50,825 bases of DNA, from the sequence record PZ452600.1; one strand, written 5' to 3'. Both the position numbers and the translations under genes were made by a program. The DNA is from a phage. The notes below the pieces were generated by a model that ran no database searches, was not told the DNA's origin, and worked only from the letters and a program-made list of their open reading frames with translations. The first letter of the stretch is position 1. Every line of letters starts with the position of its first letter. Positions 27,534-50,825 of this stretch are shown piece by piece.

Positions 27534-28010
27534 TTAGCTATTTGTGCTGTTATCACCTTTGTAGAATCGTCCGCCTGGTTCGTAGTCTGAATTTTTGACT
27601 ACGCGCAACATCTCGTATTTGTCGCAACGGGTAGTAAGAGGCTTACCGTTAGAATCAAACCGCAGATCTGGACGACAAAATGATGCGCGGTATCCTTTGC
27701 ATCCATTATATTTGTAGTCGTTATGCACCTTTTGTGCTCCAGCGGCTGAAATCATACCACGCTTTCGCCATTGGTTAACGACTTGCTGAGATACGCGTAG
27801 ACGTCGAGCCATAGCAGGAACACCGCCATAATACTCGATCAGAATATCCAAGCGAGATTTCAGGCTTGCTTTTACCTCATCTCGCAGGATAAGAAATCCG
27901 GTTCGGTGTTTTCGTGGCTTTTTGTCTTTACCTCGTCGCGTTCCGTTGTTACCGTTAATAGTGCGCTTGTCGATCTCACCCGTAGACACCGCAATTCGTG
28001 CATCTTTCAT
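27534..28010 (-). CDS. helix-turn-helix DNA-binding protein
   Basis: HTH-like segment VPAMARRLRVSQQVVNQWRKRGMIS; GAGGTGA RBS; divergent from helicase. Confidence 0.55.
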   Translation of the reverse strand: MKDARIAVSTGEIDKRTINGNNGTRRGKDKKPRKHRTGFLILRDEVKASLKSRLDILIEYYGGVPAMARRLRVSQQVVNQWRKRGMISAAGAQKVHNDYKYNGCKGYRASFCRPDLRFDSNGKPLTTRCDKYEMLRVVKNSDYEPGGRFYKGDNSTNS

Positions 28011-40803: not shown

Positions 40804-41057
40804 TTTTTCTTCTCCTGCAATAAGCAAACATCATTGATAAAATCAGCACGGCCCTTAATGTTGCTGATGTGGAACGTCTTTTCAGCGTACAGGCCATCAC
40901 CTTCAATCACGATCATTACGCGAGTCGGTTTATTCACGGGCGCACGAGAAAAGGGTTGGCGCACCGGAAGAAATTTAGTCATCACATCTAGGTTAGACCT
41001 GGCGGCCCTGCAAAATGCATCCGCCAGATCCAAATCATTTTCGGTAATCACCGCCAT
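40791..41057 (-). CDS. hypothetical protein
   Basis: 88 aa; overlaps upstream stop. Confidence 0.45.
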   Translation of the reverse strand: MAVITENDLDLADAFCRAARSNLDVMTKFLPVRQPFSRAPVNKPTRVMIVIEGDGLYAEKTFHISNIKGRADFINDVCLLQEKKKCWM

Positions 41058-41329
41058 TACTTCTTGATCTCCTTACTGATAAATTTCAGCACCTGGCGCA
41101 AGAAAACTTCGTTGTTGATAGTCGCTGGCAATTCTTCTTTCACTTCTTGCGGCAGATAGATATTACCGTGCCAGGTCAAGCAATCGTAGTTAATACGATA
41201 AGAGCAAAGCCACTCGCAATCGTTATCTGCTTCCCATATGCAGAGTTGCAGAACATCGCCAAAATCTTCAACAGTCAGATCCAGACCGTGACGCTTAGCG
41301 AAATTGAAAGTGGTTTTGCTGATGTTCAT
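41057..41329 (-). CDS. hypothetical protein (first gene of leftward early block)
   Basis: 90 aa; CAGGAG RBS; directly downstream of cassette 41347-41408. Confidence 0.5.
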   Translation of the reverse strand: MNISKTTFNFAKRHGLDLTVEDFGDVLQLCIWEADNDCEWLCSYRINYDCLTWHGNIYLPQEVKEELPATINNEVFLRQVLKFISKEIKK

Positions 41330-41346
41330 TTACTATCTCCTGAGCG

Positions 41347-41408
41347 GTTCGTTTCGATGTGTGTAATGTACCCGATCAGGCGGCCTGAGTTTTAACAAAA
41401 AGTGCTAT
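41347..41408 (-). promoter_or_regulatory. box cassette heading the leftward early block
   Basis: minus-strand box (41408-41389), hairpin CAGGCCGCCTGATCGGG, TACATT (41370-41365), CATCGAAACGAAC (41359-41347); ATG 41329. Confidence 0.5.
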
Positions 41409-41437
41409 TTGACGGTTAGCACCAGGATTGTGATCGA

Positions 41438-41530
41438 AATAATCAAAAGTAATCATTCGTAATCAAATCGCGTCAAAATGATGATTGCCTTTGCAAATTT
41501 GATGAGAAAAGTAATCACGTTTAATCATTG
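41438..41530. repeat. iteron-like array of five (G)TAATCA repeats
   Basis: aaTAATCAaaa, gTAATCAttc, gTAATCAaat (10-11 bp phasing), then gTAATCAcgt, tTAATCAttg 40 nt later; non-coding. Confidence 0.5.
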
Positions 41531-41963
41531 GTTGCAGGGGAGATAGTGAAACCTTCCCCTCTTGCCTCACTTTTCCTCCTGGCTGTCAGTGGTTGTTGTC
41601 TTTTGTTCACCACTGTTACCGATTTCAGGCGGCGTGTTTCCGCGCGGTTTTCCGGTGTAGCGAAAACGGAAAAAACAAAGAAAATCCTCTATAATACATT
41701 GAAAATAAAGATTATTTATTTATATATATCTATAATGTTTTCTTTTTGTTCTCACTGTTACAGTGCTTTTTGTTGGTTATGGTGTGGTTGTGTGTGGGTA
41801 TATATGGATAGTTTCGCGCGCGGCGGATTGCATATGTATATATACTTTTTCCGGCGGATTGCGTTAACAGCGTGAACAGAAAAATAACAGCCGCGAAATC
41901 AATAACTTGCGCGTGATTTTGTAGTTTTTCGATATTGGTAACGTTTTGAATACAACAAAAACA

Positions 41964-41991
41964 TTGACACGCACCAAATAGCTTTTATAAT
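41964..41991 (+). promoter_or_regulatory. near-consensus sigma70 promoter for rightward early block
   Basis: TTGACA-N16-TATAAT; GGAGG RBS and ATG 42023 follow. Confidence 0.7.
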
Positions 41992-42022
41992 GCGCCAACA
42001 GTCAACAACCGGAGGAAAGGAA

Positions 42023-42487
42023 ATGGAACAGAAAACCACTAAGGACTATTGCGATTGGCTTCGCGAGCTTGGTCGCCGCCTGGCTAGTGGAGATATTGAA
42101 GAGTATAAAATGTCACTAATTGACCTGGCCGGAATGTTAAGCGGTGACGACTGCTACAAGATCACGCGCAGTTCATCCTACAGCCGGACCATTATCAACC
42201 GCATTCCAGAAGTAAGGGCCGCAGGTCGGGTAAGCATCAAGGTAGAGGAAGCGGAAGATGATAAATTTTACGTTTTCCGCATGGTCCGCGAATCGAAAAG
42301 GAAAATCATCACACCCGAAGAATTGCCAGCCATCAAGGCAAGGGCGATCAAAAAGTTTGCCGATCGCTTGCTGGCAGCAATCCCGAATATCGTTGACCTG
42401 GAAGGGGATAAACTGGCTGGAGCTTGTGAGGGCGTAAGCCGCTACCAGGATATGATCCGCGAAATCATCAAAGAGGAAGAGCAATGA
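42023..42487 (+). CDS. hypothetical protein (first gene after near-consensus promoter)
   Basis: GGAGGAAAGG RBS before ATG 42023; the track start 41990 falls inside the -10 hexamer. Confidence 0.55.
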   Translation: MEQKTTKDYCDWLRELGRRLASGDIEEYKMSLIDLAGMLSGDDCYKITRSSSYSRTIINRIPEVRAAGRVSIKVEEAEDDKFYVFRMVRESKRKIITPEELPAIKARAIKKFADRLLAAIPNIVDLEGDKLAGACEGVSRYQDMIREIIKEEEQ

Positions 42488-42756
42488 AAAAGGCATTAAT
42501 CAGCGTTTTGGCGGCAATGGCATTCCTGACCGGATGCAAAGAAGATGGCGCGCATGTTGGCAATGTGCAGATGGCTAACCCTGGCGATGACTACAGCGTA
42601 AGGGAGCTATTCACCGCTGACGGTTGCACCGTTTACCGATTCTATGACGATCGCACTGTTTACTTCACCAACTGCAAGGGAACGACTAGCTGGGAAGTGT
42701 CGAAAAGCAACGGCAAAGGCACAACAACAGAATATATGACCGTCGAGACAAAATAG
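42484..42756 (+). CDS. early lipoprotein
   Basis: ATGA overlap; signal peptide with lipobox LTGC (MKKALISVLAAMAFLTGCKED). Confidence 0.6.
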   Translation: MKKALISVLAAMAFLTGCKEDGAHVGNVQMANPGDDYSVRELFTADGCTVYRFYDDRTVYFTNCKGTTSWEVSKSNGKGTTTEYMTVETK

Positions 42757-42812
42757 CACTTTTTGTTAAAACGCCAGGTGCAAAGCCTGGCATAATAGCC
42801 TCATCGAAACGA
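42753..42812 (+). promoter_or_regulatory. box cassette
   Basis: box 42753-42772 contains upstream stop TAG; hairpin GCCAGG/CCTGGC; CATAAT 42791-42796; CATCGAAACGA 42802-42812. Confidence 0.5.
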
Positions 42813-42828
42813 GATTGAGGAAACAAAA

Positions 42829-43014
42829 ATGGCACGTCGCATCACCAAAGACCTTAAAGTCCTGAACAAAGAAAACGTAGTTAAAATCCTGGTTATATGG
42901 GGCTACAACGAAGAAGCAGCAAAGCAGAAGGTAGAGGCAGGTTATGACCTGGCTGTAAAAGCAATGCCAAACGACGACGCCAAAGGCATTGCAAACTATG
43001 TAGCGTTCTTTTAA
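42829..43014 (+). CDS. hypothetical protein
   Basis: GAGG 8 nt before ATG; downstream of cassette 42753-42812. Confidence 0.5.
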   Translation: MARRITKDLKVLNKENVVKILVIWGYNEEAAKQKVEAGYDLAVKAMPNDDAKGIANYVAFF

Positions 43015-43029
43015 TTAGCAGGTGAATAA

Positions 43030-43215
43030 ATGAAAACGAAATTAGTCCATAAATCAGAAATCAAGATCGGCGATACTGTGATTCACAACGGCGAGCTTAG
43101 AACGGTTGGCAAAGAGTCAATAAGCCGCGATGAATTTATGGGGATCTTGTTGTTCGGTGACTCTTATCGTCTTGGTTACAAGATGGTTGAGCTTGTGGAA
43201 GAGGTCAAATTCTAA
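43030..43215 (+). CDS. hypothetical protein
   Basis: AGGTGA RBS; 61 aa. Confidence 0.5.
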   Translation: MKTKLVHKSEIKIGDTVIHNGELRTVGKESISRDEFMGILLFGDSYRLGYKMVELVEEVKF

Positions 43216-43259
43216 ATAGCACTTTTTGTTAAAACTCGAAAACGATAACCAGGCATAAT
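43216..43259 (+). promoter_or_regulatory. box cassette
   Basis: box 43216-43235; N18; CATAAT 43254-43259; stem-loop GGGCGGCACGGCGTCGCCC in leader. Confidence 0.5.
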
Positions 43260-43313
43260 AAATCACATAGGGCGGCACGGCGTCGCCCACAAAACCAATC
43301 AGGAGAAAGCACC

Positions 43314-44117
43314 ATGTTAAAACTTGCTGACATTAAATTCCCGATCACCTTCGAATCTCGCGGCATTGGTCATTACATTTTTACTGATGAAAAAACATGC
43401 CATAAAGTTGATTTGCATAGCTACAAGCGTGCGCCATCAGACATGGAGATTGAACACTTCATTGATGCACATAACAAGCACTACAACGCACTTAAAGACT
43501 ATGGCTATGCAATGCCAGGATATACCAGCTTCCACTACAAGCCATATAAAGGCCAGGTGTTGCCAGTGCGCTCGCCGGAACGCGCAGAGATTCCGATGGT
43601 CAATATGAAAACATGCGACTACAAAAAGCTGTGGTGCTTAAGTGTGGACAATATCAAGTATCCGATCACGTTCCGCACGACTGGTAAGTCAACGATTCGC
43701 TACACATCGCGCGAAAATGGCGTTTATAGCGATGGTACGAAATCAGAGTTGAAAGTTGATTTCTTTGTCAACGGTCACAACAAATTCAATCCGCACAACG
43801 AAGAGGATAAAGTGTACTACGTGGAAGACATTACAAAACACTTGTTTGGAGAAACTCCATTCGGCGGCGGTAAGACGTCAATTCAAAAAATCGTAACGCA
43901 GGGCGCGATTGAAGATATGCCAGTTGCAGCCACGCTAAAAGGAGTCCGGCTTGATGACGGCACCTGGTATGAATTAACGGCTACACCAAAGACGATCGAA
44001 ATTCATGATGATGTTGTTATCCTTCTGCTTCACTACGGCGGCTATAAAAACCGGACGATTACAGGTGAGATCAGCATCAAGCGCGGAACGATGGTTAAGT
44101 GGAAGGTCAAAGTGTAA
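43314..44117 (+). CDS. hypothetical protein with internal duplication
   Basis: 267 aa; repeated segment ADIKFPITFESRGIGHYIFTDE / DNIKYPITFRTTGKSTIRYTSRE; downstream of cassette 43216-43259. Confidence 0.55.
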   Translation: MLKLADIKFPITFESRGIGHYIFTDEKTCHKVDLHSYKRAPSDMEIEHFIDAHNKHYNALKDYGYAMPGYTSFHYKPYKGQVLPVRSPERAEIPMVNMKTCDYKKLWCLSVDNIKYPITFRTTGKSTIRYTSRENGVYSDGTKSELKVDFFVNGHNKFNPHNEEDKVYYVEDITKHLFGETPFGGGKTSIQKIVTQGAIEDMPVAATLKGVRLDDGTWYELTATPKTIEIHDDVVILLLHYGGYKNRTITGEISIKRGTMVKWKVKV

Positions 44118-44160
44118 ATAGCACGAATTGTTAAAACTCAAATGTGGGGCCAGGTATAAT
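44118..44160 (+). promoter_or_regulatory. box cassette (variant box)
   Basis: ATAGCACGAATTGTTAAAAC 44118-44137; hairpin GTGGGGCC/GGCCCCAC with TATAAT 44155-44160 in loop. Confidence 0.5.
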
Positions 44161-44190
44161 GGCCCCACTTTCAACGAAGGAGATAAAACG

Positions 44191-44412
44191 ATGTACATTA
44201 GCAAGAAGATGAAATGTGTTTCCGTTAACTATGCTTGCTCTGGCATGTTCAAGCCTGGCGAAATCTATACGGCGCAAAAACTGAAATCATCAACCGGATC
44301 TTTTTACGTGAGCAATAGTAAGGGGCATCGCATGTTCCTGAACGGCGGCGAAGGCACTAAGGTTATGGCACACGCTATGGTAATGGCTGAATTTGAGGAA
44401 GTGAAACAATGA
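44191..44412 (+). CDS. hypothetical protein, tandem paralog A
   Basis: AAGGAG RBS before ATG 44191; paralogous to the next ORF (..FLNGGEGTKVMAH..AEFEEVK). Confidence 0.5.
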   Translation: MYISKKMKCVSVNYACSGMFKPGEIYTAQKLKSSTGSFYVSNSKGHRMFLNGGEGTKVMAHAMVMAEFEEVKQ

Positions 44413-44654
44413 TCATTGAAAACAATTTTCTTTGCGTTAAGAGCAATAGACCATTCTTCACGCCTGGCAAGGTGTACCAGGGCAAGAAGGACACAATAGA
44501 TGGTAACTCTTATCATGTTTACTGCAACAACGGATACAAGTTTTACCTTAACGGCAACAATGGAACTGAGATCGTTGCGTTTGAAAACGTAGTTGCCGAG
44601 TTCGAGCAGATTACAGACGCGGAATTTGAGGAAGTGAAAGATGAAAACAAATAA
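44409..44654 (+). CDS. hypothetical protein, tandem paralog B
   Basis: ATGA overlap; ..FYLNGNNGTEIVAFENVVAEFEQ..EFEEVK matches paralog A. Confidence 0.5.
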   Translation: MIIENNFLCVKSNRPFFTPGKVYQGKKDTIDGNSYHVYCNNGYKFYLNGNNGTEIVAFENVVAEFEQITDAEFEEVKDENK

Positions 44655-44862
44655 GCGCGTCAAGCACAGGTTTACTGATAACCACGGCGACGCGATTGAT
44701 GTATACAAGTTCGGCGATCGCGTGTTTATTGATGGCACGTTTGAAGGTGGGCGTAGGCCGGATTTTAGGTCGATACTTACCGTTGACCAAGTGCGCAAGC
44801 TGGCAGATAAGTTAAATGATCTGGCAGATGAAATAGAATACAAGCAAATCCATTTTAATTGA
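44641..44862 (+). CDS. hypothetical protein
   Basis: 73 aa; overlaps upstream 3' end. Confidence 0.45.
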   Translation: MKTNKRVKHRFTDNHGDAIDVYKFGDRVFIDGTFEGGRRPDFRSILTVDQVRKLADKLNDLADEIEYKQIHFN

Positions 44863-44873
44863 TAGGTTTGATA

Positions 44874-45413
44874 ATGAAAAAATACACTTTCGAACTGTGG
44901 GGCAATAAGTACGAATTAATCACCAGCAAGCCGATTGTTATCGTTGACCTGGACGGCACGCTGTCGGACGGATCGCATCGCTTGCACTTGTTGCCAACTG
45001 AAAACTTGCACCTTACGGAATCGTGGCGCGAGTTTAACAGGGCCGCAGCAGGAGATTCACCGATTAAAAGCACGATCGCGATTGTTAACGGTTTGTGGGT
45101 GTCTGGATTTGCCATCGTCATCTTGACCGGACGCAGCGACGAGGTGCGCTATGAAACATGCAAATGGTTGAATGAGAGCGGCGTGAAGTTTGACGAAATC
45201 ATCATGCGCCGACATGAGGACAACCGAAAGGATACGGTTATTAAAGAAGAAGCCTTGCGCGCTATTGGCCTGGACAATATTGTTTGCGCCTTTGACGATT
45301 CGCCGAACGTTGTTAAGCACTTCCGCAGCCTGGGAATCACAACCTATCAGGTCACGGAATACGACAAGCCACACGCTCACCTGCAATCTCACGGCGTGGA
45401 GTGTTTAAAATGA
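44874..45413 (+). CDS. HAD-superfamily phosphatase (nucleotidase / polynucleotide 3'-phosphatase-like)
   Basis: HAD motif I IVIVDLDGTLSDG, motif II ILTGR, motif IV FDDSPNVV; ATG 44874 (track start 44859 is TTG). Confidence 0.65.
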   Translation: MKKYTFELWGNKYELITSKPIVIVDLDGTLSDGSHRLHLLPTENLHLTESWREFNRAAAGDSPIKSTIAIVNGLWVSGFAIVILTGRSDEVRYETCKWLNESGVKFDEIIMRRHEDNRKDTVIKEEALRAIGLDNIVCAFDDSPNVVKHFRSLGITTYQVTEYDKPHAHLQSHGVECLK

Positions 45414-45571
45414 CTTGGTTGCTTTTAATCTTTGTCACAAGTTACAACTCCGCAGCTATTGAGTCGCAGGAGTTCCACGGCGAATCAAGATGCCAGGAAG
45501 CGCGAAAGCAAGTTGTTCTCCACATGTCAGATAGTGGGAAGGATGTAACAGCGTTATGCGTTCGTAAATAG
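45410..45571 (+). CDS. small secreted/membrane protein (53 aa)
   Basis: Not in ORF track; ATGA overlap with HAD stop; hydrophobic N-terminus MTWLLLIFVTSYNSAAIES; stop TAG embedded in box 45568-45588. Confidence 0.4.
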   Translation: MTWLLLIFVTSYNSAAIESQEFHGESRCQEARKQVVLHMSDSGKDVTALCVRK

Positions 45572-45612
45572 CACTTTTTGCAAAAAACAGATTAACGGGC
45601 TTGCGGTATAGT
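45568..45612 (+). promoter_or_regulatory. box cassette (variant box)
   Basis: ATAGCACTTTTTGCAAAAAAC 45568-45588; hairpin GGGCTT/AAGCCC with TATAGT 45607-45612 in loop. Confidence 0.45.
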
Positions 45613-45643
45613 AAGCCCATCAACAACAAGCGAGGATTAAATC

Positions 45644-45907
45644 ATGGCTAACAAGATCGAATTTTTCAAAGCGGTAGACATTATTGATGGCGCGCCTAGC
45701 TTCTTTGCCATCCATTCTATTGACGGCAAGGATATTGGGTACAACGTTATCCGTCGAGATGGAATCTCAAAACTTAGTGACCTGGTAGGTCATGTTGTGG
45801 CGAACGGGAAATGTGCATGGCCCGATTCGCCGCGAGAGCCGCGCCGCCGCGACATGGTAGAGCCTGTTCTGCTTTACACTCTGGTAGTAGAAGGAGAAAA
45901 TAAATGA
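45644..45907 (+). CDS. hypothetical protein
   Basis: GAGG RBS; downstream of cassette 45568-45612. Confidence 0.5.
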   Translation: MANKIEFFKAVDIIDGAPSFFAIHSIDGKDIGYNVIRRDGISKLSDLVGHVVANGKCAWPDSPREPRRRDMVEPVLLYTLVVEGENK

Positions 45908-46089
45908 TTTGGTTACTTGCTTTTTTGGTTGTTTTTCTTTACATTTCAGGCTTGTTTACGTTCCGCGCGTTGGTGAAATATTCTGACGCGACAGACAAAG
46001 ACGATAAAATCGTTCTCGCTTTCTGGTTTGTTTGGGTGTGGTTAGCAATTTACGAGATCATCAGAGACAAACAGAAATTTGATTGGTGA
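45904..46089 (+). CDS. small membrane protein
   Basis: ATGA overlap; two hydrophobic helices. Confidence 0.45.
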   Translation: MIWLLAFLVVFLYISGLFTFRALVKYSDATDKDDKIVLAFWFVWVWLAIYEIIRDKQKFDW

Positions 46090-46145
46090 TTCTTGCTATG
46101 GCGCATTCATGCAGTGCGCCATGTTGAGAAAACCTAAAGGGGGAA

Positions 46146-46289
46146 ATGATGCGTAACTTTGAAAAAATCGTTACCAAAAAGAAGCGTCGCGGATACGATG
46201 AGCATGTAGAGTTTGTGAACAAGCAACGCAAGAAGCGCCATAGACGCGAAATGCTGCATAATATCAACTCACGCTATGGAGATCATTAA
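46146..46289 (+). CDS. small basic protein (47 aa)
   Basis: Not in ORF track; AGGGGGAA RBS; Lys/Arg-rich (KKKRRGY...KQRKKRHRRE). Confidence 0.35.
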   Translation: MMRNFEKIVTKKKRRGYDEHVEFVNKQRKKRHRREMLHNINSRYGDH

Positions 46290-46291
46290 TC

Positions 46292-46882
46292 ATGAAGCGA
46301 GACATTATCATCCTTAATGGGCCGCCAGGCTGCGGGAAGGACACTATTGCAGCTTACCTAACGGGCCATCGTTACCCTGCTGTCAAGGCGTCATTCAAAC
46401 AGCCGATGTTCGATATTGCTTTTTCTATGCTGGGCGTGTACCGATACGATGAATTTATGGACCTGTACAACGACCGAGAGCAAAAAGAAAAGCCTCAAGT
46501 TATCTTAGGAGGCAAGTCACCTCGACAATTCATGATCTGGATTAGTGAGGATGTAATGAAGCCAGTTTTTGGGGGTCACTATTTCGGGCGTCGCATGGTT
46601 GAAGAGATTCACGAGATGTACCGAGATTTAGCGGTTGTGATCAGCGATGGTGGATTCCCCGAAGAAATCAAGCCGCTTGTTAAGGCAGGGCATGAAGTGC
46701 ATATTTGCCGATTGCATCGCGACGGCTTCACGTTTGCTGGCGATTCGAGAGACTACATTGACCTGAGCGGTTATCACTATCGAATCCATCACTATGATTT
46801 CCACTTGCAGGAAGGTAAGCCGGAACTGGCTGTAAGCGAGATCGTCAATGCAGTCAAATGGAAGCACACACAGATTAAATAG
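46292..46882 (+). CDS. P-loop nucleotide/nucleoside kinase
   Basis: Walker A IIILNGPPGCGKDT at N-terminus; 196 aa. Confidence 0.65.
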   Translation: MKRDIIILNGPPGCGKDTIAAYLTGHRYPAVKASFKQPMFDIAFSMLGVYRYDEFMDLYNDREQKEKPQVILGGKSPRQFMIWISEDVMKPVFGGHYFGRRMVEEIHEMYRDLAVVISDGGFPEEIKPLVKAGHEVHICRLHRDGFTFAGDSRDYIDLSGYHYRIHHYDFHLQEGKPELAVSEIVNAVKWKHTQIK

Positions 46883-46922
46883 CACGAATTGCTAAACGCG
46901 GGGTTATCGGCCCCGCTATAAT
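46879..46922 (+). promoter_or_regulatory. box cassette (variant box)
   Basis: ATAGCACGAATTGCTAAAC 46879-46897; hairpin GCGGGG/CCCCGC; TATAAT 46917-46922. Confidence 0.5.
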
Positions 46923-46952
46923 GCTCACATCAACAAGTAAGAGGAAATCACA

Positions 46953-47333
46953 ATGGTTAACATCCGAAAAATCCGCGTCGGCACTAAATTCTTAGTTACT
47001 TACGCAATTCCAGATAGCGGAATGAAGAAGGGCCAGATTGTTAAGGTTGATAGCAAAAGATTCGGAATCCCTGGTATCAATGGCTATCTAATCAATAAAG
47101 ATCTTGGATTCGGCGGCTTCGCTATCCGTTCGCTTGAGGGTATTGTTGTTACCCTCAAGCAAATCACTAACCATCGCGGCTGCCCAATCAAGACGATTAA
47201 AGCGCCAACCAATTACGGCAAACTGGATAATCGTCGAATCCGACGCCTGGCGCGTAACGCGTTAAAATTCCGTGGCGTAGGCGATGATTTCTACTATGGA
47301 TACAAGAGGATTGCGCGCAATGCTGGGAAATAA
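46953..47333 (+). CDS. hypothetical protein
   Basis: AGAGGAAA RBS; downstream of cassette 46879-46922. Confidence 0.5.
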   Translation: MVNIRKIRVGTKFLVTYAIPDSGMKKGQIVKVDSKRFGIPGINGYLINKDLGFGGFAIRSLEGIVVTLKQITNHRGCPIKTIKAPTNYGKLDNRRIRRLARNALKFRGVGDDFYYGYKRIARNAGK

Positions 47334-47432
47334 CAATAACGCAACGAATCCTAAGCCACCTTTTGATTTTCATTCCGCAATGATTGCGGTATTATCAATG
47401 CTACTTTTTCTTTATAGCATGAGGGCGCTACT

Positions 47433-47681
47433 ATGGTTTTTAACGCATTGAAACGACTGTTTAAGCCGGAATACCGGATCGTATTTTGCCGAGACTGTTC
47501 TACTTATCATGTGCAGCGACGCAGCTTAGGCGGCAATTGGCACTATGTTACAGACGACTTTTTCGGCATCATTGCCACTGAATTTAAGTATTACAGCGAT
47601 GCTTATATGTACGTCAAGAAGCGCCACCGCTTACGCAAGTGTCGTTTTTCCGTGCTGATTCACGTTAATGATTGTTACTGA
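47433..47681 (+). CDS. hypothetical protein
   Basis: GAGGG RBS; 82 aa. Confidence 0.45.
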   Translation: MVFNALKRLFKPEYRIVFCRDCSTYHVQRRSLGGNWHYVTDDFFGIIATEFKYYSDAYMYVKKRHRLRKCRFSVLIHVNDCY

Positions 47682-47688
47682 GGTGAAA

Positions 47689-47871
47689 ATGAAAACTGGT
47701 ATTATTATTCTTTTCCTGATCCTTTTCGGCAGCCATTTAACCATTAACTATGAGGGCATTATGGCCTTTTGGGGCAACTTGATGATGTTTGCAGCTGGTT
47801 CGATTGCTGGCTACTCTGACGGGAAAAAGGATGGCGTTCGCAAGATGCTGATGGGACTTAAACAAAAATAA
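47689..47871 (+). CDS. small membrane protein
   Basis: GAGGTGAAA RBS before ATG 47689; hydrophobic helices. Confidence 0.4.
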   Translation: MKTGIIILFLILFGSHLTINYEGIMAFWGNLMMFAAGSIAGYSDGKKDGVRKMLMGLKQK

Positions 47872-47882
47872 GGGGATCTGAA

Positions 47883-48173
47883 ATGGCAAACAAAACTTAC
47901 CGCAAACTACTGGTTAACGCTTTTGAAAACATCGCGCAGTGTAACAAGTGGAACGACTCTAAACACTCGCCAATCACAATGAAGCGCGCCGGATTCAAAA
48001 ATGCTCGTTCATGGGCGCGAGCTTTCGCAGCTTGCTATATGCCGGATGGCGGACTAGGGGTGATGAACGATTTTTTGATCAACATGATAGAGGAAGCGGC
48101 GCGAGAGGATCGACCGCTGACACAGCGAGATTTTGACGACTTCGCGCGCGATGAGCTTTACTATCTGAGCTAA
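47883..48173 (+). CDS. hypothetical protein
   Basis: AAGGGG RBS; 96 aa; stop abuts box 48173-48192. Confidence 0.5.
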   Translation: MANKTYRKLLVNAFENIAQCNKWNDSKHSPITMKRAGFKNARSWARAFAACYMPDGGLGVMNDFLINMIEEAAREDRPLTQRDFDDFARDELYYLS

Positions 48174-48216
48174 TAGCACTTTTTGTTAAAACTTCCGCAA
48201 GGGCATTTGGTAAAGT
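48173..48216 (+). promoter_or_regulatory. box cassette
   Basis: box 48173-48192; hairpin AAGGGCA/TGCCCTT; TAAAGT 48211-48216; GCGAAAC box in leader. Confidence 0.45.
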
Positions 48217-48248
48217 GCCCTTATTGAAGCGAAACAGAGGAAAGCGCA

Positions 48249-48461
48249 ATGAAAATCAAAATCACCAAAATCGACACTATCAACGGCGACGGATCAATCA
48301 CTCTTGAGCAATGTGGCTTGGTTGTTGGTGATGTGCTGGAAGTTGACGGACATTTCAGCGACGGATCTTATTGTGTTATTGCGCCGCGCAACAGCGAGTT
48401 TATCAAGGCTGGCGACAATATTAGTGTTAACCATGACGAATGCGAGGTAGTAGAAGAATGA
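48249..48461 (+). CDS. hypothetical protein
   Basis: downstream of cassette 48173-48216; 70 aa. Confidence 0.45.
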   Translation: MKIKITKIDTINGDGSITLEQCGLVVGDVLEVDGHFSDGSYCVIAPRNSEFIKAGDNISVNHDECEVVEE

Positions 48462-48721
48462 TCACGATTAACCTGTCAGAGCAGCAAGCGCGCATTATAT
48501 TAGCGGCCTTTGGCTGGCGAGATGATGACGGCATCCAGGCAACGGTTAAAATTCCTGAGCCAGTGGCGCGTGAAGTTTTCAGCCAGCTAGAACACGCATT
48601 TGATCCTGCTGGGACTGAGCAAGCGGAAACTGCCGCATGGTTCGGAGAGAACGGATACAGAGATCAGCAAGTCGAAAACTGGAAGCGCATAAACGAGACT
48701 ATGGAGGAATCAGGTTTATGA
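48458..48721 (+). CDS. hypothetical acidic protein
   Basis: ATGA overlap; 87 aa with clear excess of Asp/Glu. Confidence 0.45.
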   Translation: MITINLSEQQARIILAAFGWRDDDGIQATVKIPEPVAREVFSQLEHAFDPAGTEQAETAAWFGENGYRDQQVENWKRINETMEESGL

Positions 48722-49032
48722 TTTATATTCACTACTACCAAATCGGAACTAACGAGAACAAGAAAGAGCATCGTTTCATCCATGATGATTTGGACAAGGC
48801 AAAGGCACAGCAACAGGTTTTAGGCGGTGTCATTCAGGCTTTTGAGCCTGTAGAAGATATTGAGTACCGCGAGCATTTAAAAGATGTTGTTATTGATGAG
48901 ATCTCTTGCTTGATTGATGATATGACAAATCACGGCCCTGGTTCCCCGTGGGAAGATGCAGGATCTGTAACGTGGGATAAGGCCAAAGTTAAGACGCTAA
49001 ACAACTTTCGAGAGATTCTCGACGGTTTTTAA
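48719..49032 (+). CDS. hypothetical protein
   Basis: ATGA overlap; 104 aa. Confidence 0.45.
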
Positions 49033-49102
49033 TTAAAAACGCATAGCCGTTAGAGCGCCTCAATCGCATTCTAACGAGCTATTTTTCTGGTAAGGTGATT
49101 TA

Positions 49103-49231
49103 ATGGATGAGTACAAACAACCCTCGCAATGGTGCAAAGAGAAGCAGGAGGAAGCACTTGAGCGCGGAGATGTAGAAGAAGCTATGAACTATTTCAAACT
49201 TGCGGAAGAATGGAAGGGGAGAGGATACTGA
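49103..49231 (+). CDS. hypothetical small protein (42 aa, uncertain)
   Basis: Not in ORF track; AAGGTGA RBS + ATG 49103; stop overlaps next ATG. Confidence 0.3.
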   Translation: MDEYKQPSQWCKEKQEEALERGDVEEAMNYFKLAEEWKGRGY

Positions 49232-49461
49232 TGTTCGGCATGAACGAGGCGCAATTCAACGCAGCTAAACGCCAGGCTAAAAAGTGCGGCGAGGCAATGA
49301 AAGCGGATGTGGAAAAGCGCGGGAAGTATGTTGATGAAGTAATGAAGGGCATCATTGCAGAACACTACCAGACAATCGCGCCAATGTTGACGATCACTCA
49401 ATTCATTTGGCTATGTGGTTACTTGCGAGGACGTTGGGGGAACGCTTTCGACAGGGAATGA
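49231..49461 (+). CDS. hypothetical protein
   Basis: ATG 49231 overlapping upstream stop (track ORF starts 49210). Confidence 0.45.
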   Translation: MFGMNEAQFNAAKRQAKKCGEAMKADVEKRGKYVDEVMKGIIAEHYQTIAPMLTITQFIWLCGYLRGRWGNAFDRE

Positions 49462-49623
49462 TTGACAACTCTTTCCTGATTGGTTAGCATGGCGTCGTTT
49501 ACATAAGAGCGGCTTTGTCCGAACGCGTGACGCGATAGTCACACAACAACGGCGATATGCAGGAGGTTTTTGCAATGCAAAATAATCCGTAAGACGTATC
49601 GCCTTTTTTAATGGAGATCCAAA

Positions 49624-49857
49624 ATGATTAAATACAAATTAACCGTTTCTTTCCGTGATACCGTTATTCATCCTTTCTACAATAGCTTTGTTAACAGCTT
49701 TACAGTAGAAGCGACAAAGGATCAGCTTGACGGTGACGAAACTTGCATTTCTATCGGCAATGTTGCTTATCCGATTCACAACATTACCAGCATTAAGCGT
49801 GAGGTTGTCGCTGATGAATTACAAAGTGAAGATGACGATCCGGCGAATGGGGCGTAA
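49624..49857 (+). CDS. hypothetical protein
   Basis: GGAG RBS; follows a 160-nt leader containing promoter-like and terminator-like elements. Confidence 0.45.
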   Translation: MIKYKLTVSFRDTVIHPFYNSFVNSFTVEATKDQLDGDETCISIGNVAYPIHNITSIKREVVADELQSEDDDPANGA

Positions 49858-49999
49858 CTGCCAATCATGCAAACAGGAATATGAATGCGTAGTTGATGCT
49901 CTTGATGAACTGGAAGCAGTAGCAAAAGCAAAAGAGCAATCGGGCGCTAATCCTGAAACACATCAATTTTCAATTAATCTTGTGAGGGCTTTACAATGA
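49814..49999 (+). CDS. hypothetical protein (start uncertain)
   Basis: GAGG 9 nt before ATG 49814; overlaps upstream ORF by 44 nt; alternative starts at 49832 or 49847. Confidence 0.35.
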   Translation: MNYKVKMTIRRMGRNCQSCKQEYECVVDALDELEAVAKAKEQSGANPETHQFSINLVRALQ

Positions 50000-50220
50000 T
50001 CGCATTATCTTTCTGCATTGGTTTTATCATGGCTATCATTATCTTTTCCGTTGTCATGCGCTTTGCTTATAAGTTCGTGATTAATAAAGGTTGGTACGCT
50101 TCTGCAATCTGGAGCGAAAAACAAAAGAAATGGCTTGTCCGTGGTCAATACCTGATGATCGGCAGCAAGATCCTAAATTCCATTCGAGCCAAAGATGGAA
50201 AAGTAAAATATACAGCTTAA
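49996..50220 (+). CDS. small membrane protein
   Basis: ATGA overlap; N-terminal hydrophobic helix; followed by terminator 50226-50249. Confidence 0.45.
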   Translation: MIALSFCIGFIMAIIIFSVVMRFAYKFVINKGWYASAIWSEKQKKWLVRGQYLMIGSKILNSIRAKDGKVKYTA

Positions 50221-50225
50221 AAATT

Positions 50226-50249
50226 ACCCGCCGCACGGCGGGTTTTTTA
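50226..50249 (+). terminator. intrinsic terminator upstream of terS
   Basis: CCCGCCG-CA-CGGCGGG + T6. Confidence 0.65.
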
Positions 50250-50298
50250 TTGCCCGTTGTCTGGTATAATCAGGCATCTAACCAAAGGAGGATTAATA

Positions 50299-50825
50299 AT
50301 GGCTAAAAATGTTGAGCCTGCTGTAAAGGCATTAAATTTCAAAGAGTTATACAATAAAACTTATGGCGATATTGTCACGCTAAACAACCGCCACAAGTAC
50401 ACGCCGGAACAGGTTTTTGATATGGCGATCCGCTATTTCACTTGGGCCGAAGAGAATCACATCCAGGCGGCTGAAACTGCTTCCTTTCAGGGTGACGTGT
50501 ACGAGAGCAGAGTTTACAAGCCTCGCGTTTTCACGGTTAACGGATTCAGCTTGTATCTCGGCGTGACTGAGGCTGCCGTAAGCAAATGGCGTAAAGAGCC
50601 TGGATTCTGCGATGTGATGGAGTTTGTTGATAAAGTAATTTACGAGCAAAAATTCCAGCTTGCGGCAAATAACATGATTAACGCTGGATTTATCGGTAAA
50701 GAGATCGGAGTAGAGAAGCCAGCAACAGTGAGCGTTGAAGCGAGCGCGGCAGCTAATGCAAGCATTGACGCAGTAACTGCCGATGAGGTGAAAGAGGCTG
50801 TGATTGATATTCTGGAGCAACTTTA
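50299..50825 (+). CDS. terS: terminase small subunit (runs off window end; completed by position 1 if circular)
   Basis: AAGGAGG RBS; 175 codons plus TA at window end; motif FTVNGFSLYLGVTEAAVSKW typical of small terminase DNA-binding region; joins TerL at position 1 through a TAATG overlap. Confidence 0.75.
   Translation, partial: MAKNVEPAVKALNFKELYNKTYGDIVTLNNRHKYTPEQVFDMAIRYFTWAEENHIQAAETASFQGDVYESRVYKPRVFTVNGFSLYLGVTEAAVSKWRKEPGFCDVMEFVDKVIYEQKFQLAANNMINAGFIGKEIGVEKPATVSVEASAAANASIDAVTADEVKEAVIDILEQL

What the first reader, a model, noticed from the sequence alone, without database searches (positions are those of the whole stretch)
42023..50220. Rightward early block of small unassigned genes, including an acidic protein and membrane peptides
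About 26 genes follow the promoter at 41964. Only the HAD phosphatase (44874-45413) and P-loop kinase (46292-46882) have recognisable motifs. Others include an acidic 87-aa protein (48458-48721), a basic 47-aa protein (46146-46289), small membrane proteins (45410, 45904, 47689, 49996) and a 267-aa protein with an internal duplication. These are candidate host-takeover or anti-defence factors.
Basis: inference. Interest (0 to 1): 0.45.

Follow-up and report, generated by a model that had tools for sequence, protein, structure and literature searches.

The report
Early small-gene block of T1-like phage
This is the ordinary early-gene region of a T1-like coliphage: 27 mostly tiny genes of unknown function that hundreds of sequenced relatives share, with no evidence here that any of them is a DNA mimic or anti-defence protein.

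Summary
42023-50220 carries 27 tightly packed + strand genes between a perfect sigma-70 promoter (41964-41991) and a terminator (50226-50243), just upstream of terS/terL.

The window is a Warwickvirus (Drexlerviridae, T1-like), about 96% identical to vB_EcoS-95, tonnikala, SECphi27 and FritzSarasin. The block is the counterpart of T1 ST77-ST55 and TLS gp01-gp28, annotated 'hypothetical' everywhere.

Assignable parts:
- a phosphatase-only homologue of the T4 Pnkp HAD domain (g9);
- a P-loop kinase of the phage dNMP-kinase PHROG (g14);
- a lipoprotein (g2);
- a T7 gp1.1-family basic peptide (g13);
- four small membrane proteins.

The acidic 87-aa protein (DUF7180) is only moderately acidic and is conserved across subfamilies. 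Its model was unusable (pLDDT 58), so the DNA-mimic idea is unsupported but not excluded.

The block is not one operon. Six copies of the published family-wide 21-nt repeat sit on stop codons, each 20 nt upstream of an extended -10-like element. The first gene (DUF7174) models confidently but gives only weak winged-helix similarity.

Verdict: real, already known in kind, functions still open, low to moderate interest.

The parts
41964..41991 (+). Consensus sigma-70 promoter (TTGACA-16-TATAAT) driving g1-g2 and read-through
   Evidence: 12 of 12 matches. TTGACA-type promoters with at least 10 of 12 matches lie upstream of g1 homologues in 16 of 31 distinct related loci.
42023..42487 (+). g1, 154 aa, DUF7174; first gene of the block in all subfamilies
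42484..42756 (+). g2, 90 aa, predicted lipoprotein (lipobox LTGC, Lys at +2), DUF4884
   Evidence: Sequence; Pfam 31.8 bits against gathering score 30. Variable among close relatives: 46% identity in Bas04, 97% in XY3.
42752..42796 (+). Repeat-type promoter cassette 1 (19-mer, hairpin spacer, CATAAT)
42829..43014 (+). g3, 61 aa, DUF7421
   Evidence: Pfam 3e-42. Found only in close relatives.
43030..43215 (+). g4, 61 aa, phrog_3623, unknown
43215..43259 (+). Repeat-type promoter cassette 2
43314..44117 (+). g5, 267 aa, phrog_7116. N-terminal module duplicated. 30-aa in-frame deletion relative to the 296-297-aa form seen in all but two of 120 listed homologues
   Evidence: Homologues are T1 ST70 and TLS gp06.
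44117..44160 (+). Repeat-type promoter cassette 3 (TATAAT inside a 9-bp hairpin)
44191..44412 (+). g6, 73 aa, phrog_9122, paralogue of g7
44409..44654 (+). g7, 81 aa, phrog_9122. Extra paralogue flanked by a 21-nt direct repeat (44386 and 44619); absent from several of the closest relatives
44641..44862 (+). g8, 73 aa, phrog_14011, unknown
44874..45413 (+). g9, 179 aa, HAD 3'-phosphatase homologous to the phosphatase domain of T4 Pnkp. No kinase domain
   Evidence: Present in 80 of 80 related loci, which were selected by g9 similarity.
45410..45571 (+). g10, 53 aa. Short hydrophobic N-terminus; replaced by other genes in relatives
45567..45612 (+). Repeat-type promoter cassette 4
45644..45907 (+). 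g11, 87 aa, unknown
45904..46089 (+). g12, 61 aa, two predicted TM segments
46146..46289 (+). g13, 47 aa, basic (pI 10.7), T7 gp1.1 family
   Evidence: Pfam PF08200, 22.8 bits against gathering score 21.
46292..46882 (+). g14, 196 aa, P-loop kinase of the phage dNMP-kinase PHROG
   Evidence: phrog_139 2.2e-50. Present in 80 of 80 loci. PDB profile search gave only generic P-loop hits.
46878..46922 (+). Repeat-type promoter cassette 5 (TATAAT)
46953..47333 (+). g15, 126 aa, very basic (pI 10.8). No PHROG or Pfam hit
47320..47451 (+). g16, 43 aa, one TM segment
47433..47681 (+). g17, 82 aa, basic, four Cys. No family hit
47689..47871 (+). g18, 60 aa, membrane peptide
47883..48173 (+). g19, 96 aa, phrog_8758
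48172..48216 (+). Repeat-type promoter cassette 6
48249..48461 (+). g20, 70 aa, acidic (pI 4.3). The 'methyltransferase type 11' label in XY3 is unsupported
48458..48721 (+). g21, 87 aa, acidic, DUF7180. Conserved in T1 (ST60) and TLS (gp21)
   Evidence: AF2 pLDDT 58, four helices.
48718..49032 (+). g22, 104 aa, phrog_11192
49008..49022 (+). Weak terminator-like hairpin plus T run inside the end of g22
49103..49231 (+). g23, 42 aa, phrog_1312
49231..49461 (+). g24, 76 aa, phrog_303. Homologues in 835 phage records; all 40 listed rows are 'hypothetical', 'unknown function' or unannotated
49462..49490 (+). Second sigma-70-like promoter (TTGACA-17-TAGCAT)
49624..49857 (+). g25, 77 aa, acidic, no family
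49814..49999 (+). g26, at most 61 aa (start uncertain; T1 and TLS homologues are 47-49 aa), phrog_2919
49996..50220 (+). g27, 74 aa, N-terminal TM anchor, DUF7299
50226..50243 (+). Bidirectional intrinsic terminator closing the block

Best explanation
This is the T1-type early region of a Warwickvirus, the counterpart of T1 ST77-ST55 and TLS gp01-gp28. It lies between the long non-coding region that holds the genome end in the T1, TLS and Rtp records and the terminase genes.

Proposed mechanism (steps marked as shown or inferred):
1. Host sigma-70 RNA polymerase starts at the consensus promoter at 41964 and first makes g1 and g2. The motif is shown; the timing is inferred.
2. Transcription is re-initiated at six copies of the family-wide 21-nt repeat. 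Each overlaps or abuts the stop codon of the upstream gene and lies 20 nt upstream of an extended -10-like element, usually across a GC-rich hairpin. The anatomy is shown; promoter activity is inferred.
3. A further sigma-70-like promoter lies at 49462. Everything stops at the terminator at 50226.
4. Two universally conserved enzymes, a Pnkp-type 3'-phosphatase (g9) and a P-loop (d)NMP-type kinase (g14), most likely process breakdown products of host DNA for re-use. T1-like phages are known to do this (inferred from PMC11447400).
5. The first gene, g1, is probably a nucleic-acid-binding protein. This rests on a weak structural inference.
6. g2 and the membrane peptides g12, g16, g18 and g27 act at the envelope, for example in superinfection exclusion (inferred).
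7. The remaining small soluble proteins probably bind and redirect host proteins (inferred; no target known).

About ten genes are shared across subfamilies. About a dozen are confined to close relatives and turn over by indels, roughly half of which abut a repeat copy.
For: Identity and synteny with named relatives.

Promoter and terminator.

The repeat:
- 20 copies in the window against 0.2 expected, oriented with transcription, six of them inside the block.
- The -10-like hexamer sits at a fixed 20-nt offset in 15 of 20 copies here. It does so in 475 of 582 unique copies across 85 related loci, with a conserved G two bases upstream.
- Stop codons of upstream genes lie in or abut the repeat.
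- It is already published for TLS, T1 and Rtp, function unknown (PMC11447400).

Enzymes. g14 is present in 80 of 80 loci that were selected by g9 similarity.

g1.

Membrane and lipoprotein features.

Core against accessory split and indel junctions.
Against: - No expression data were available, so 'early' rests on position, promoters and the literature's own presumption.
- The repeat has no canonical -35 element. Its promoter activity is untested; it could be a repressor or enhancer site, as the TLS authors suggest.
- g14 shows no detectable sequence similarity to solved dNMP kinases.
- No function was obtained for 20 of the 27 proteins.
Confidence: 0.75

Rival explanations
1. The block is chiefly an anti-defence arsenal. 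The acidic 87-aa protein g21 (or its acidic neighbours g20 and g22) is a DNA mimic that blocks restriction or other DNA-binding defence proteins. The lineage-restricted small genes each neutralise one host system.
For: - Early, promoter-proximal position.
- Many tiny proteins without families.
- About a dozen genes are confined to close relatives and are replaced by indels, as expected for arms-race genes.
- TLS and Rtp carry a clear homologue of the T4 Stp peptide in the same block.
Against: - Pfam scans at E <= 0.1 named no anti-defence family, and PHROGs and PDB sequence searches added none.
- No Stp homologue is present here.
- g21 has 18% D+E and a net charge of about -9. From memory, Ocr has nearly 30% D+E.
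- g21 is conserved from T1 to TLS.
- Its model has pLDDT 58, so no fold comparison was possible.
- No paper found reports such an activity.
Confidence: 0.15
2. g9 and g14 form a split end-healing system, like the phosphatase and kinase halves of T4 Pnkp. It would repair tRNA or DNA ends cut by host anticodon nucleases or other defence nucleases, rather than salvage nucleotides.
For: - The only solved relatives of g9 are RNA-repair enzymes: T4 Pnkp phosphatase domain and Pnkp1.
- g14 accompanies g9 in all 80 loci selected by g9 similarity.
- Stp, the T4 peptide linked to the PrrC/Pnkp conflict, occurs in the same block in TLS and Rtp.
Against: - No RNA ligase was noticed in the block or in the parts of relatives' annotation that were read.
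- Rtp has g9 but no detectable g14.
- g14 matches the dNMP-kinase PHROG at 2e-50, not a polynucleotide-kinase family.
- T1-like phages are known to re-use host nucleotides (PMC11447400).
Confidence: 0.2
3. Most lineage-restricted small ORFs are dispensable cargo shuffled in and out at the repeat cassettes, as at the promoter/stem-loop (PeSL) junctions of T4-like phages. They would have no role in infection of laboratory hosts.
For: - Alignment breaks against relatives fall within 7 nt of five of the six repeat copies.
- Extra repeat-bounded cassettes are present in relatives.
- The repeat carries stop codons in at least two frames in 20 of 20 copies and in all three frames in 7, so any upstream ORF is terminated.
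- g7 is a recent paralogue insertion.
Against: - About half of the indel junctions do not touch a repeat.
- Alignments would begin at a conserved motif in any case.
- All ORFs keep intact reading frames and ribosome-binding sites at about 96% nucleotide identity among isolates.
Confidence: 0.3

Closest known systems
Early (left-arm) region of phage T1 (ST77-ST55), TLS (gp01-gp28) and Rtp (rtp1-rtp18); the same region in Warwickvirus isolates such as FritzSarasin/Bas04 genes 0063-0091
   Same: - Same position: after the long non-coding region at the genome end and before terS/terL.
- Same orientation.
- Same conserved members: DUF7174 first gene, g5 family, Pnkp-type phosphatase, P-loop kinase, DUF7180, and the g24 and g26 families.
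- Same 21-nt repeat between gene groups.
- About 96% nucleotide identity to other Warwickviruses.
   Different: This isolate has a 30-aa in-frame deletion in g5 and an extra g6 paralogue (g7). It has a short g10 where relatives carry one or two other cassettes. It lacks the extra gene after g5 and the Stp homologue seen in TLS and Rtp.
T4 polynucleotide kinase/phosphatase (Pnkp)
   Same: g9 aligns with the C-terminal HAD phosphatase domain and keeps the DxDGT nucleophile motif.
   Different: g9 has no N-terminal P-loop 5'-kinase domain. 'Polynucleotide kinase' in the database records is therefore an over-annotation.
PeSL promoter/stem-loop cassettes of T4-like phages (PMC4122927)
   Same: A short conserved promoter-like motif plus stem-loop recurs between small early genes and coincides with several indel junctions.
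   Different: - The motif sequence is different.
- There is no canonical -35 element.
- The hairpin lies between the motif and the -10 and lacks a U tract.
- The repeat also occurs in front of replication and structural genes.
- A role in recombination is only suggested here.
T7 gene 1.1 protein (Pfam PF08200)
   Same: g13 is a similarly small, very basic protein that shares the N-terminal MRNFEK motif and scores above the family's gathering threshold (the T7 sequence is recalled from memory).
   Different: Only the N-terminal 33 residues align. The function of T7 gp1.1 is itself unknown.
DNA-mimic anti-restriction proteins (T7 Ocr, ArdA)
   Same: g21 is small, acidic and early.
   Different: g21 has much lower charge density and no sequence match. 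The predicted four-helix model is of low confidence, and the protein is conserved as a core gene of the family.

Membership tests
T1-like (Drexlerviridae) early region | Synteny: long non-coding region, then small + strand genes including the Pnkp-type phosphatase, then a terminator, then terS/terL | tested here: met
T1-like (Drexlerviridae) early region | Sequence homology of the conserved members to T1, TLS or Rtp proteins | tested here: met
   g1, g5, g9, g14, g21, g22, g24 and g26 have tblastn hits in at least one of T1, TLS or Rtp. T1 ST60 is DUF7180 and T1 ST77 is sub-threshold DUF7174.
T1-like (Drexlerviridae) early region | Expression early in infection | not testable with these tools
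   No transcriptome of a T1-like phage was found. The literature calls these genes 'presumptive early'.
T4 Pnkp (bifunctional polynucleotide kinase/phosphatase) | HAD phosphatase domain with DxDxT nucleophile motif | tested here: met
   IVIVDLDGTLS; Pfam HAD_PNKP 3.6e-21; PDB 1ltq residues 202-298.
T4 Pnkp (bifunctional polynucleotide kinase/phosphatase) | N-terminal P-loop 5'-kinase domain | tested here: not met
   g9 is 179 aa, has no GxxxxGK[ST] motif, and aligns only to the phosphatase half.
Phage dNMP kinase (PHROG_139; T4 gp1 / T5 Dnk type) | Walker A P-loop and a match to the family profile | tested here: met
   GPPGCGKD; phrog_139 E = 2.2e-50 over residues 1-189.
Phage dNMP kinase (PHROG_139; T4 gp1 / T5 Dnk type) | Detectable similarity to a solved dNMP kinase; substrate specificity | tested here: inconclusive
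   Single-sequence and profile searches of PDB gave only generic P-loop, adenylate-kinase or guanylate-kinase N-terminal hits with E > 0.01. Activity is not testable here.
T7 gp1.1 family (PF08200) | Score above Pfam gathering threshold | tested here: met
   22.8 bits against 21; E = 1.3e-4.
DNA-mimic anti-restriction proteins (Ocr / ArdA type) | Sequence membership in a known family | tested here: not met
   The only Pfam hit for g21 at E <= 0.1 is DUF7180. Single-sequence and profile searches of PDB found nothing.
DNA-mimic anti-restriction proteins (Ocr / ArdA type) | Very high surface density of acidic residues arranged like a DNA backbone | tested here: inconclusive
   18% D+E and net charge about -9, which is modest. 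The model at pLDDT 58 is unusable for surface analysis.
Bacterial-type lipoprotein (g2) | Signal peptide with lipobox [LVI][ASTVI][GAS]C | tested here: met
   MKKALISVLAAMAFLTGC.
Cor / Llp superinfection-exclusion lipoproteins | Sequence similarity to Cor or Llp; blocking of the phage receptor | tested here: not met
   The only Pfam or PHROG hits are DUF4884 and unnamed PHROGs. In T1, Cor is encoded elsewhere, next to the tail genes. Function is not testable here.
Winged-helix DNA-binding proteins (g1) | Helix-turn-helix plus beta-hairpin wing, recognisable by fold comparison | tested here: inconclusive
PeSL-like shuffling cassettes | Conserved promoter-like motif with stem-loop between small early genes | tested here: met
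PeSL-like shuffling cassettes | Motif marks the junctions of gene gain and loss between close relatives | tested here: inconclusive
   Five of six copies coincide with alignment breaks, but only about half of the indel classes abut a copy.

The most novel reading that the evidence does not exclude
The 21-nt repeat cassettes could be a phage-specific transcription and shuffling system. Each unit would terminate translation of whatever lies upstream, because it carries stops in two or three frames. It would also restart transcription from an extended -10 promoter that has no -35 element. The universally conserved first gene g1 (DUF7174, winged-helix-like, expressed from the only consensus sigma-70 promoter) would be the factor that recognises the repeat. 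[quoted passage not shown] It would also extend PeSL-type modular shuffling from T4-like myoviruses to a siphovirus family.
Probability: 0.15. Interest if true: 0.6.

Novelty: already known. Interest (0 to 1): 0.28.

Why it matters
T1-like phages are among the commonest coliphages, are notorious laboratory contaminants and are used in phage-therapy collections. How they shut off the host, degrade its DNA and regulate their own transcription remains unknown; PMC11447400 lists these as open questions.

This block is where the answers should lie. The finding as stated, however, adds no specific handle: the same genes are already present, as 'hypothetical proteins', in hundreds of public genomes.

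What this analysis adds:
- a cleaned gene list;
- a split into roughly ten family-wide genes and about a dozen lineage-restricted ones;
- correction of over-annotations ('polynucleotide kinase', 'methyltransferase type 11');
- a more concrete, testable reading of the repeat as an extended -10 promoter cassette.

Tried and rejected
- **Arr-type ADP-ribosyltransferase for g5.** phmmer against PDB gave E = 0.016 to rifampin ADP-ribosyltransferase. The alignment runs across the junction of a 30-aa deletion unique to this isolate. The NAD-binding His position is D here and is not conserved in the family. Rejected as chance.
- **Stp peptide.** TLS gp05 and Rtp6 are clear T4 Stp homologues. No counterpart was found anywhere in the window.
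- **PDB sequence searches.** A concatenate of the 25 unassigned proteins found nothing. Profiles of the g1, g21 and g14 families found nothing significant.
- **NCBIfam** on ten proteins found nothing beyond weak HAD hits.
- **Structure of g21.** pLDDT 58, so it was not taken to fold search.
- **Fold searches for g1.** No confident match in PDB. In BFVD only uncharacterised Drexlerviridae proteins matched. The afdb50 library was unavailable.
- **Exhaustive profile search for g1.** It found 65 clusters. All but one are proteins of under 200 aa (mostly about 140-190 aa); the exception is a 1,662-aa protein with seven short matched stretches. Ten distant members scanned on Pfam carry DUF7174 only.
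- **Sigma-54 reading of the repeat (TAGCAC...TTGC).** Rejected by inspection. The spacing is 2 nt shorter than the sigma-54 -24/-12 consensus as I recall it, and a -10-like hexamer is conserved 20 nt downstream.
- **Rfam.** No credible RNA family in 41000-50825.
- **Labels in vB_EcoS_XY3.** 'ipe, inducer of pleiotropic effects' (g24) and 'methyltransferase type 11' (g20) have no support in Pfam or PHROGs, and the first phrase occurs in no searchable paper.
- **Literature.** Searches for functional work on these genes found none.

Full report
**What the window is**

Megablast of 42023-50220 against phage records gives 272 hits. The best (vB_EcoS-95, tonnikala, tinuso, SECphi27, FritzSarasin/Bas04, vB_EcoS_XY3) are about 96% identical over 90-95% of the query. 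These phages are classified as Drexlerviridae, Tempevirinae, Warwickvirus, that is T1-like siphoviruses.

The window starts at the terL ATG. terS starts at 50300 and runs off the end. The block therefore lies directly upstream of the packaging genes, exactly as T1 ST77-ST55, TLS gp01-gp28 and Rtp rtp1-rtp18 do. In those three linear records, coordinate 1 lies about 540-590 bp upstream of the first gene of the block. The roughly 550-bp non-coding stretch at 41410-41963 thus corresponds to the region that holds the genome end in the relatives' records.

**Checking the observation**

I count 27 + strand ORFs, called g1-g27 here. All start with ATG and nearly all have a GGAG/GAGG-type ribosome-binding site. 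They are packed with overlaps of 1-44 nt or gaps of 2-162 nt. They match the annotated genes of Bas04 and XY3.

- The promoter at 41964 is a perfect TTGACA-16-TATAAT. An intrinsic terminator sits at 50226-50243.
- The phosphatase, the kinase, the acidic and basic proteins and the internal duplication in the 267-aa protein are all as described.
- Of the four 'membrane peptides', 45904, 47689 and 49996 are clear. 45410 has only 12 hydrophobic residues.
- A further membrane peptide (g16, 47320-47451) and a lipoprotein (g2, lipobox LTGC) were missed.

**What can be assigned**

*g9* is homologous only to the HAD phosphatase half of T4 Pnkp. It hits Pfam HAD_PNKP and the PDB entries 1ltq, 5uj0 and 4xrp, and keeps an invariant DxDGT motif. 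It has no kinase domain, so the 'polynucleotide kinase' label in the databases overstates it.

*g14* has a GPPGCGKD P-loop and matches the dNMP-kinase PHROG at 2e-50. Neither it nor a family profile finds a solved dNMP kinase.

*g13* reaches the gathering score of the T7 gp1.1 family.

*Families of unknown function:* g1, g2, g3, g21 and g27 fall in Pfam DUFs.

*No hit at all:* PHROGs has no family for g15, g16, g17, g18 and g25.

NCBIfam and PDB sequence searches added nothing. The XY3 labels 'methyltransferase type 11' (g20) and 'ipe' (g24) have no support.

**Core and accessory genes**

I fetched 80 related loci from IMG/VR using an alignment of g9 homologues, with g9 identity ranging from 96% down to 58%. 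I then searched them with every gene. Counts are lower bounds because some loci are truncated.

| Gene | Loci with a hit (of 80) |
|---|---|
| g9, g14 | 80 (loci were selected by g9) |
| g24 | 50 |
| g26 | 49 |
| g21 | 48 |
| g22 | 35 |
| g23 | 34 |
| g19 | 33 |
| g1 | 29 |
| g5 | 27 |

g2, g3, g4, g6, g10, g13, g15, g17, g18 and g25 occur only in close relatives.

g24 has homologues in 835 phage records; every listed row is 'hypothetical', 'unknown function' or unannotated.

Against its closest relatives this isolate differs by discrete indels:
- a 30-aa in-frame deletion in g5;
- an extra paralogue (g7) bounded by a 21-nt direct repeat;
- replacement of g10 and g13;
- absence of a small gene that several close relatives carry after g5.

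**The block is not a single operon**

A 19-nt core, AATAGCACTTTTTGTTAAA, occurs 20 times in the window with at most two mismatches, against 0.2 expected. It is almost always oriented with local transcription. Six copies lie inside the block, at 42752, 43215, 44117, 45567, 46878 and 48172.

This is the 21-nt repeat aaATAGCACnnnTTGnTAAAA already reported for TLS, T1, Rtp and Rogue1. Its function is listed there as an open question (PMC11447400).

Points from this analysis that I did not see in the passages of that paper that I read:
- In 15 of 20 copies a -10-like hexamer (CATAAT, TATAAT, TATATT or TACATT) starts exactly 20 nt after the core.
- Across 85 Drexlerviridae loci, 475 of 582 unique copies show the same offset. 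The consensus there is GnTATAnT, an extended -10-like signature.
- No -35-like hexamer is present at the proper distance.
- The spacer is a GC-rich hairpin of variable sequence in about 12 of 20 copies, by z-score against shuffles.
- The repeat carries stop codons in at least two frames in all 20 copies and in three frames in seven.
- In most copies, including all six in the block, the upstream gene's stop codon lies in or abuts the repeat.
- In the third frame the repeat encodes the NSTNC or NSTFC tails seen on some TLS-group proteins.

I read these units as promoter cassettes that also close the upstream reading frame. Promoter activity is an inference.

Alignment breaks against relatives fall within 7 nt of five of the six in-block copies, and relatives carry extra repeat-bounded cassettes. 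Only about half of the indel classes touch a copy, however, and a conserved motif would anchor alignments in any case. The resemblance to the PeSL cassettes of T4-like phages (PMC4122927) is therefore suggestive, not shown.

**The first gene**

g1 (DUF7174) is the first gene of the block in TLS and Rtp. T1 ST77 is a sub-threshold, full-length match at 21.3 bits.

TTGACA-type sigma-70 promoters with at least 10 of 12 matches lie upstream of its homologues in 16 of 31 distinct loci.

The AlphaFold model is confident (pLDDT 83). It shows helices and a beta hairpin, followed by two long C-terminal helices.
- Foldseek finds nothing in PDB at E <= 0.001.
- BFVD returns only uncharacterised Drexlerviridae proteins.
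- An exhaustive profile search of 1.84 billion representatives finds 65 clusters. All but one are proteins of under 200 aa (mostly about 140-190 aa), and none of ten distant members scanned on Pfam carries another domain.

A nucleic-acid-binding role is plausible but unproven. A link to the repeat is speculation.

**The acidic protein and the anti-defence reading**

g21 (DUF7180) has 16 acidic against 7 basic residues. g20, with a net charge of -9 in 70 aa, is more acidic per residue.

g21 is conserved in T1 (ST60) and TLS (gp21). That looks more like a core function than a strain-specific weapon.

Its model, built on 19 mostly close homologues, reached only pLDDT 58 with four helices.

Pfam scans at E <= 0.1 named no anti-defence family for any of the 27 proteins, PHROGs gave no functional name beyond the two enzymes, and PDB sequence searches added nothing. 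The Stp homologue present in TLS and Rtp is missing here.

A weak hit of g5 to rifampin ADP-ribosyltransferase (E = 0.016) was rejected. The alignment spans the isolate-specific deletion junction and the key His is not conserved.

**Verdict**

The feature is real and correctly delimited, but it is the well-known, functionally unexplored early region of T1-like phages, present in hundreds of public genomes.

The host-takeover reading is reasonable from position, promoters and family knowledge. The anti-defence and DNA-mimic readings have no specific support here and are not excluded.

The most useful outcomes are:
- the gene-by-gene clean-up;
- the split into core and accessory genes;
- a sharper description of the repeat cassettes;
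- the identification of DUF7174 as the conserved, sigma-70-driven first gene.

Noticed in passing
window, 20 sites: 1565, 6195, 9948, 20726, 26459, 28021, 30510, 31581, 34826, 36988, 37662, 39580, 40086, 41391, 42752, 43215, 44117, 45567, 46878, 48172: The genome-wide repeat AATAGCACnnnTTGnTAAA occurs 20 times against 0.2 expected, oriented with transcription. A -10-like hexamer lies exactly 20 nt downstream in 15 of 20 copies, and a variable GC-rich hairpin fills the spacer in about 12. It carries stop codons in two or three frames. It is published for TLS, T1 and Rtp with unknown function. Across 85 loci the consensus is AATAGCACnnnTTGCTAAAAC-N16-GnTATAnT.
   Followed up: yes
window 41410-41963: A non-coding, AT-rich stretch of about 550 bp lies between the divergent leftward and rightward gene blocks. 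It carries five (A/T)AATCA repeats at 41437-41535, an 11-nt repeat CGGCGGATTGC (two copies) and a degenerate copy of the 21-nt repeat at about 41755. It corresponds to the region that holds the genome end in the T1, TLS and Rtp records, so it is a candidate pac or origin region.
   Followed up: partly
window 50264-50272: A perfect extended -10 element (TGGTATAAT) without a -35 lies between the block's terminator and terS (start 50300). This fits the extended -10 signature downstream of the repeats.
   Followed up: no
window 43880-43895 (g5): g5 has a 30-aa in-frame deletion (IIGEEIHK...AFANQE) relative to the 296-297-aa form, which all but two of the 120 listed homologues share. The junction lies between two Q-[KE]-I codon triplets, which suggests a slippage deletion.
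   Followed up: partly
window 44386-44406 and 44619-44639: A 21-nt direct repeat encoding AEFEEVK flanks g7. g7 is a paralogue of g6 and is absent from Bas04 and several other close relatives, so it looks like a recent duplication or insertion by recombination between the shared C-terminal coding repeats.
   Followed up: partly
L004:1865-1945 (TLS gp05) and L005:2432-2524 (Rtp6): TLS and Rtp encode clear homologues of T4 Stp, the peptide that inhibits EcoprrI and activates the PrrC anticodon nuclease. They sit in the same early block as the Pnkp-type phosphatase. This window has none.
   Followed up: yes
L004 (TLS gp05, gp06) and several IMG/VR loci (L036, L042, L046, L047, L070): Several early proteins of TLS-group phages end in ...NSTNC, which is the translation of the 21-nt repeat in its third frame. 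The repeat can therefore supply the C-terminus and stop of upstream genes.
   Followed up: partly
phage records MG065671.1 and MG065641.1: Records named 'Campylobacter phage A120' and 'A14a' (about 47 kb) encode a g24 homologue 96-97% identical to this coliphage's. About 20 'Campylobacter' records match the block. The host labels look doubtful (contaminating T1-like coliphage?).
   Followed up: no
window 44304-44843 (- strand): A 179-aa antisense ORF with a TTG start overlaps g6-g8. No relative whose annotation was read (Bas04, XY3) annotates a - strand gene there, so it is most likely spurious.
   Followed up: no
window 27534-28010 (- strand): This ORF sits between a primase-like and a helicase-like gene, in the position of T1 gp23 / Rtp52 'transcriptional regulator' (predicted HTH). 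It is an alternative candidate for a protein that recognises the 21-nt repeat.
   Followed up: no
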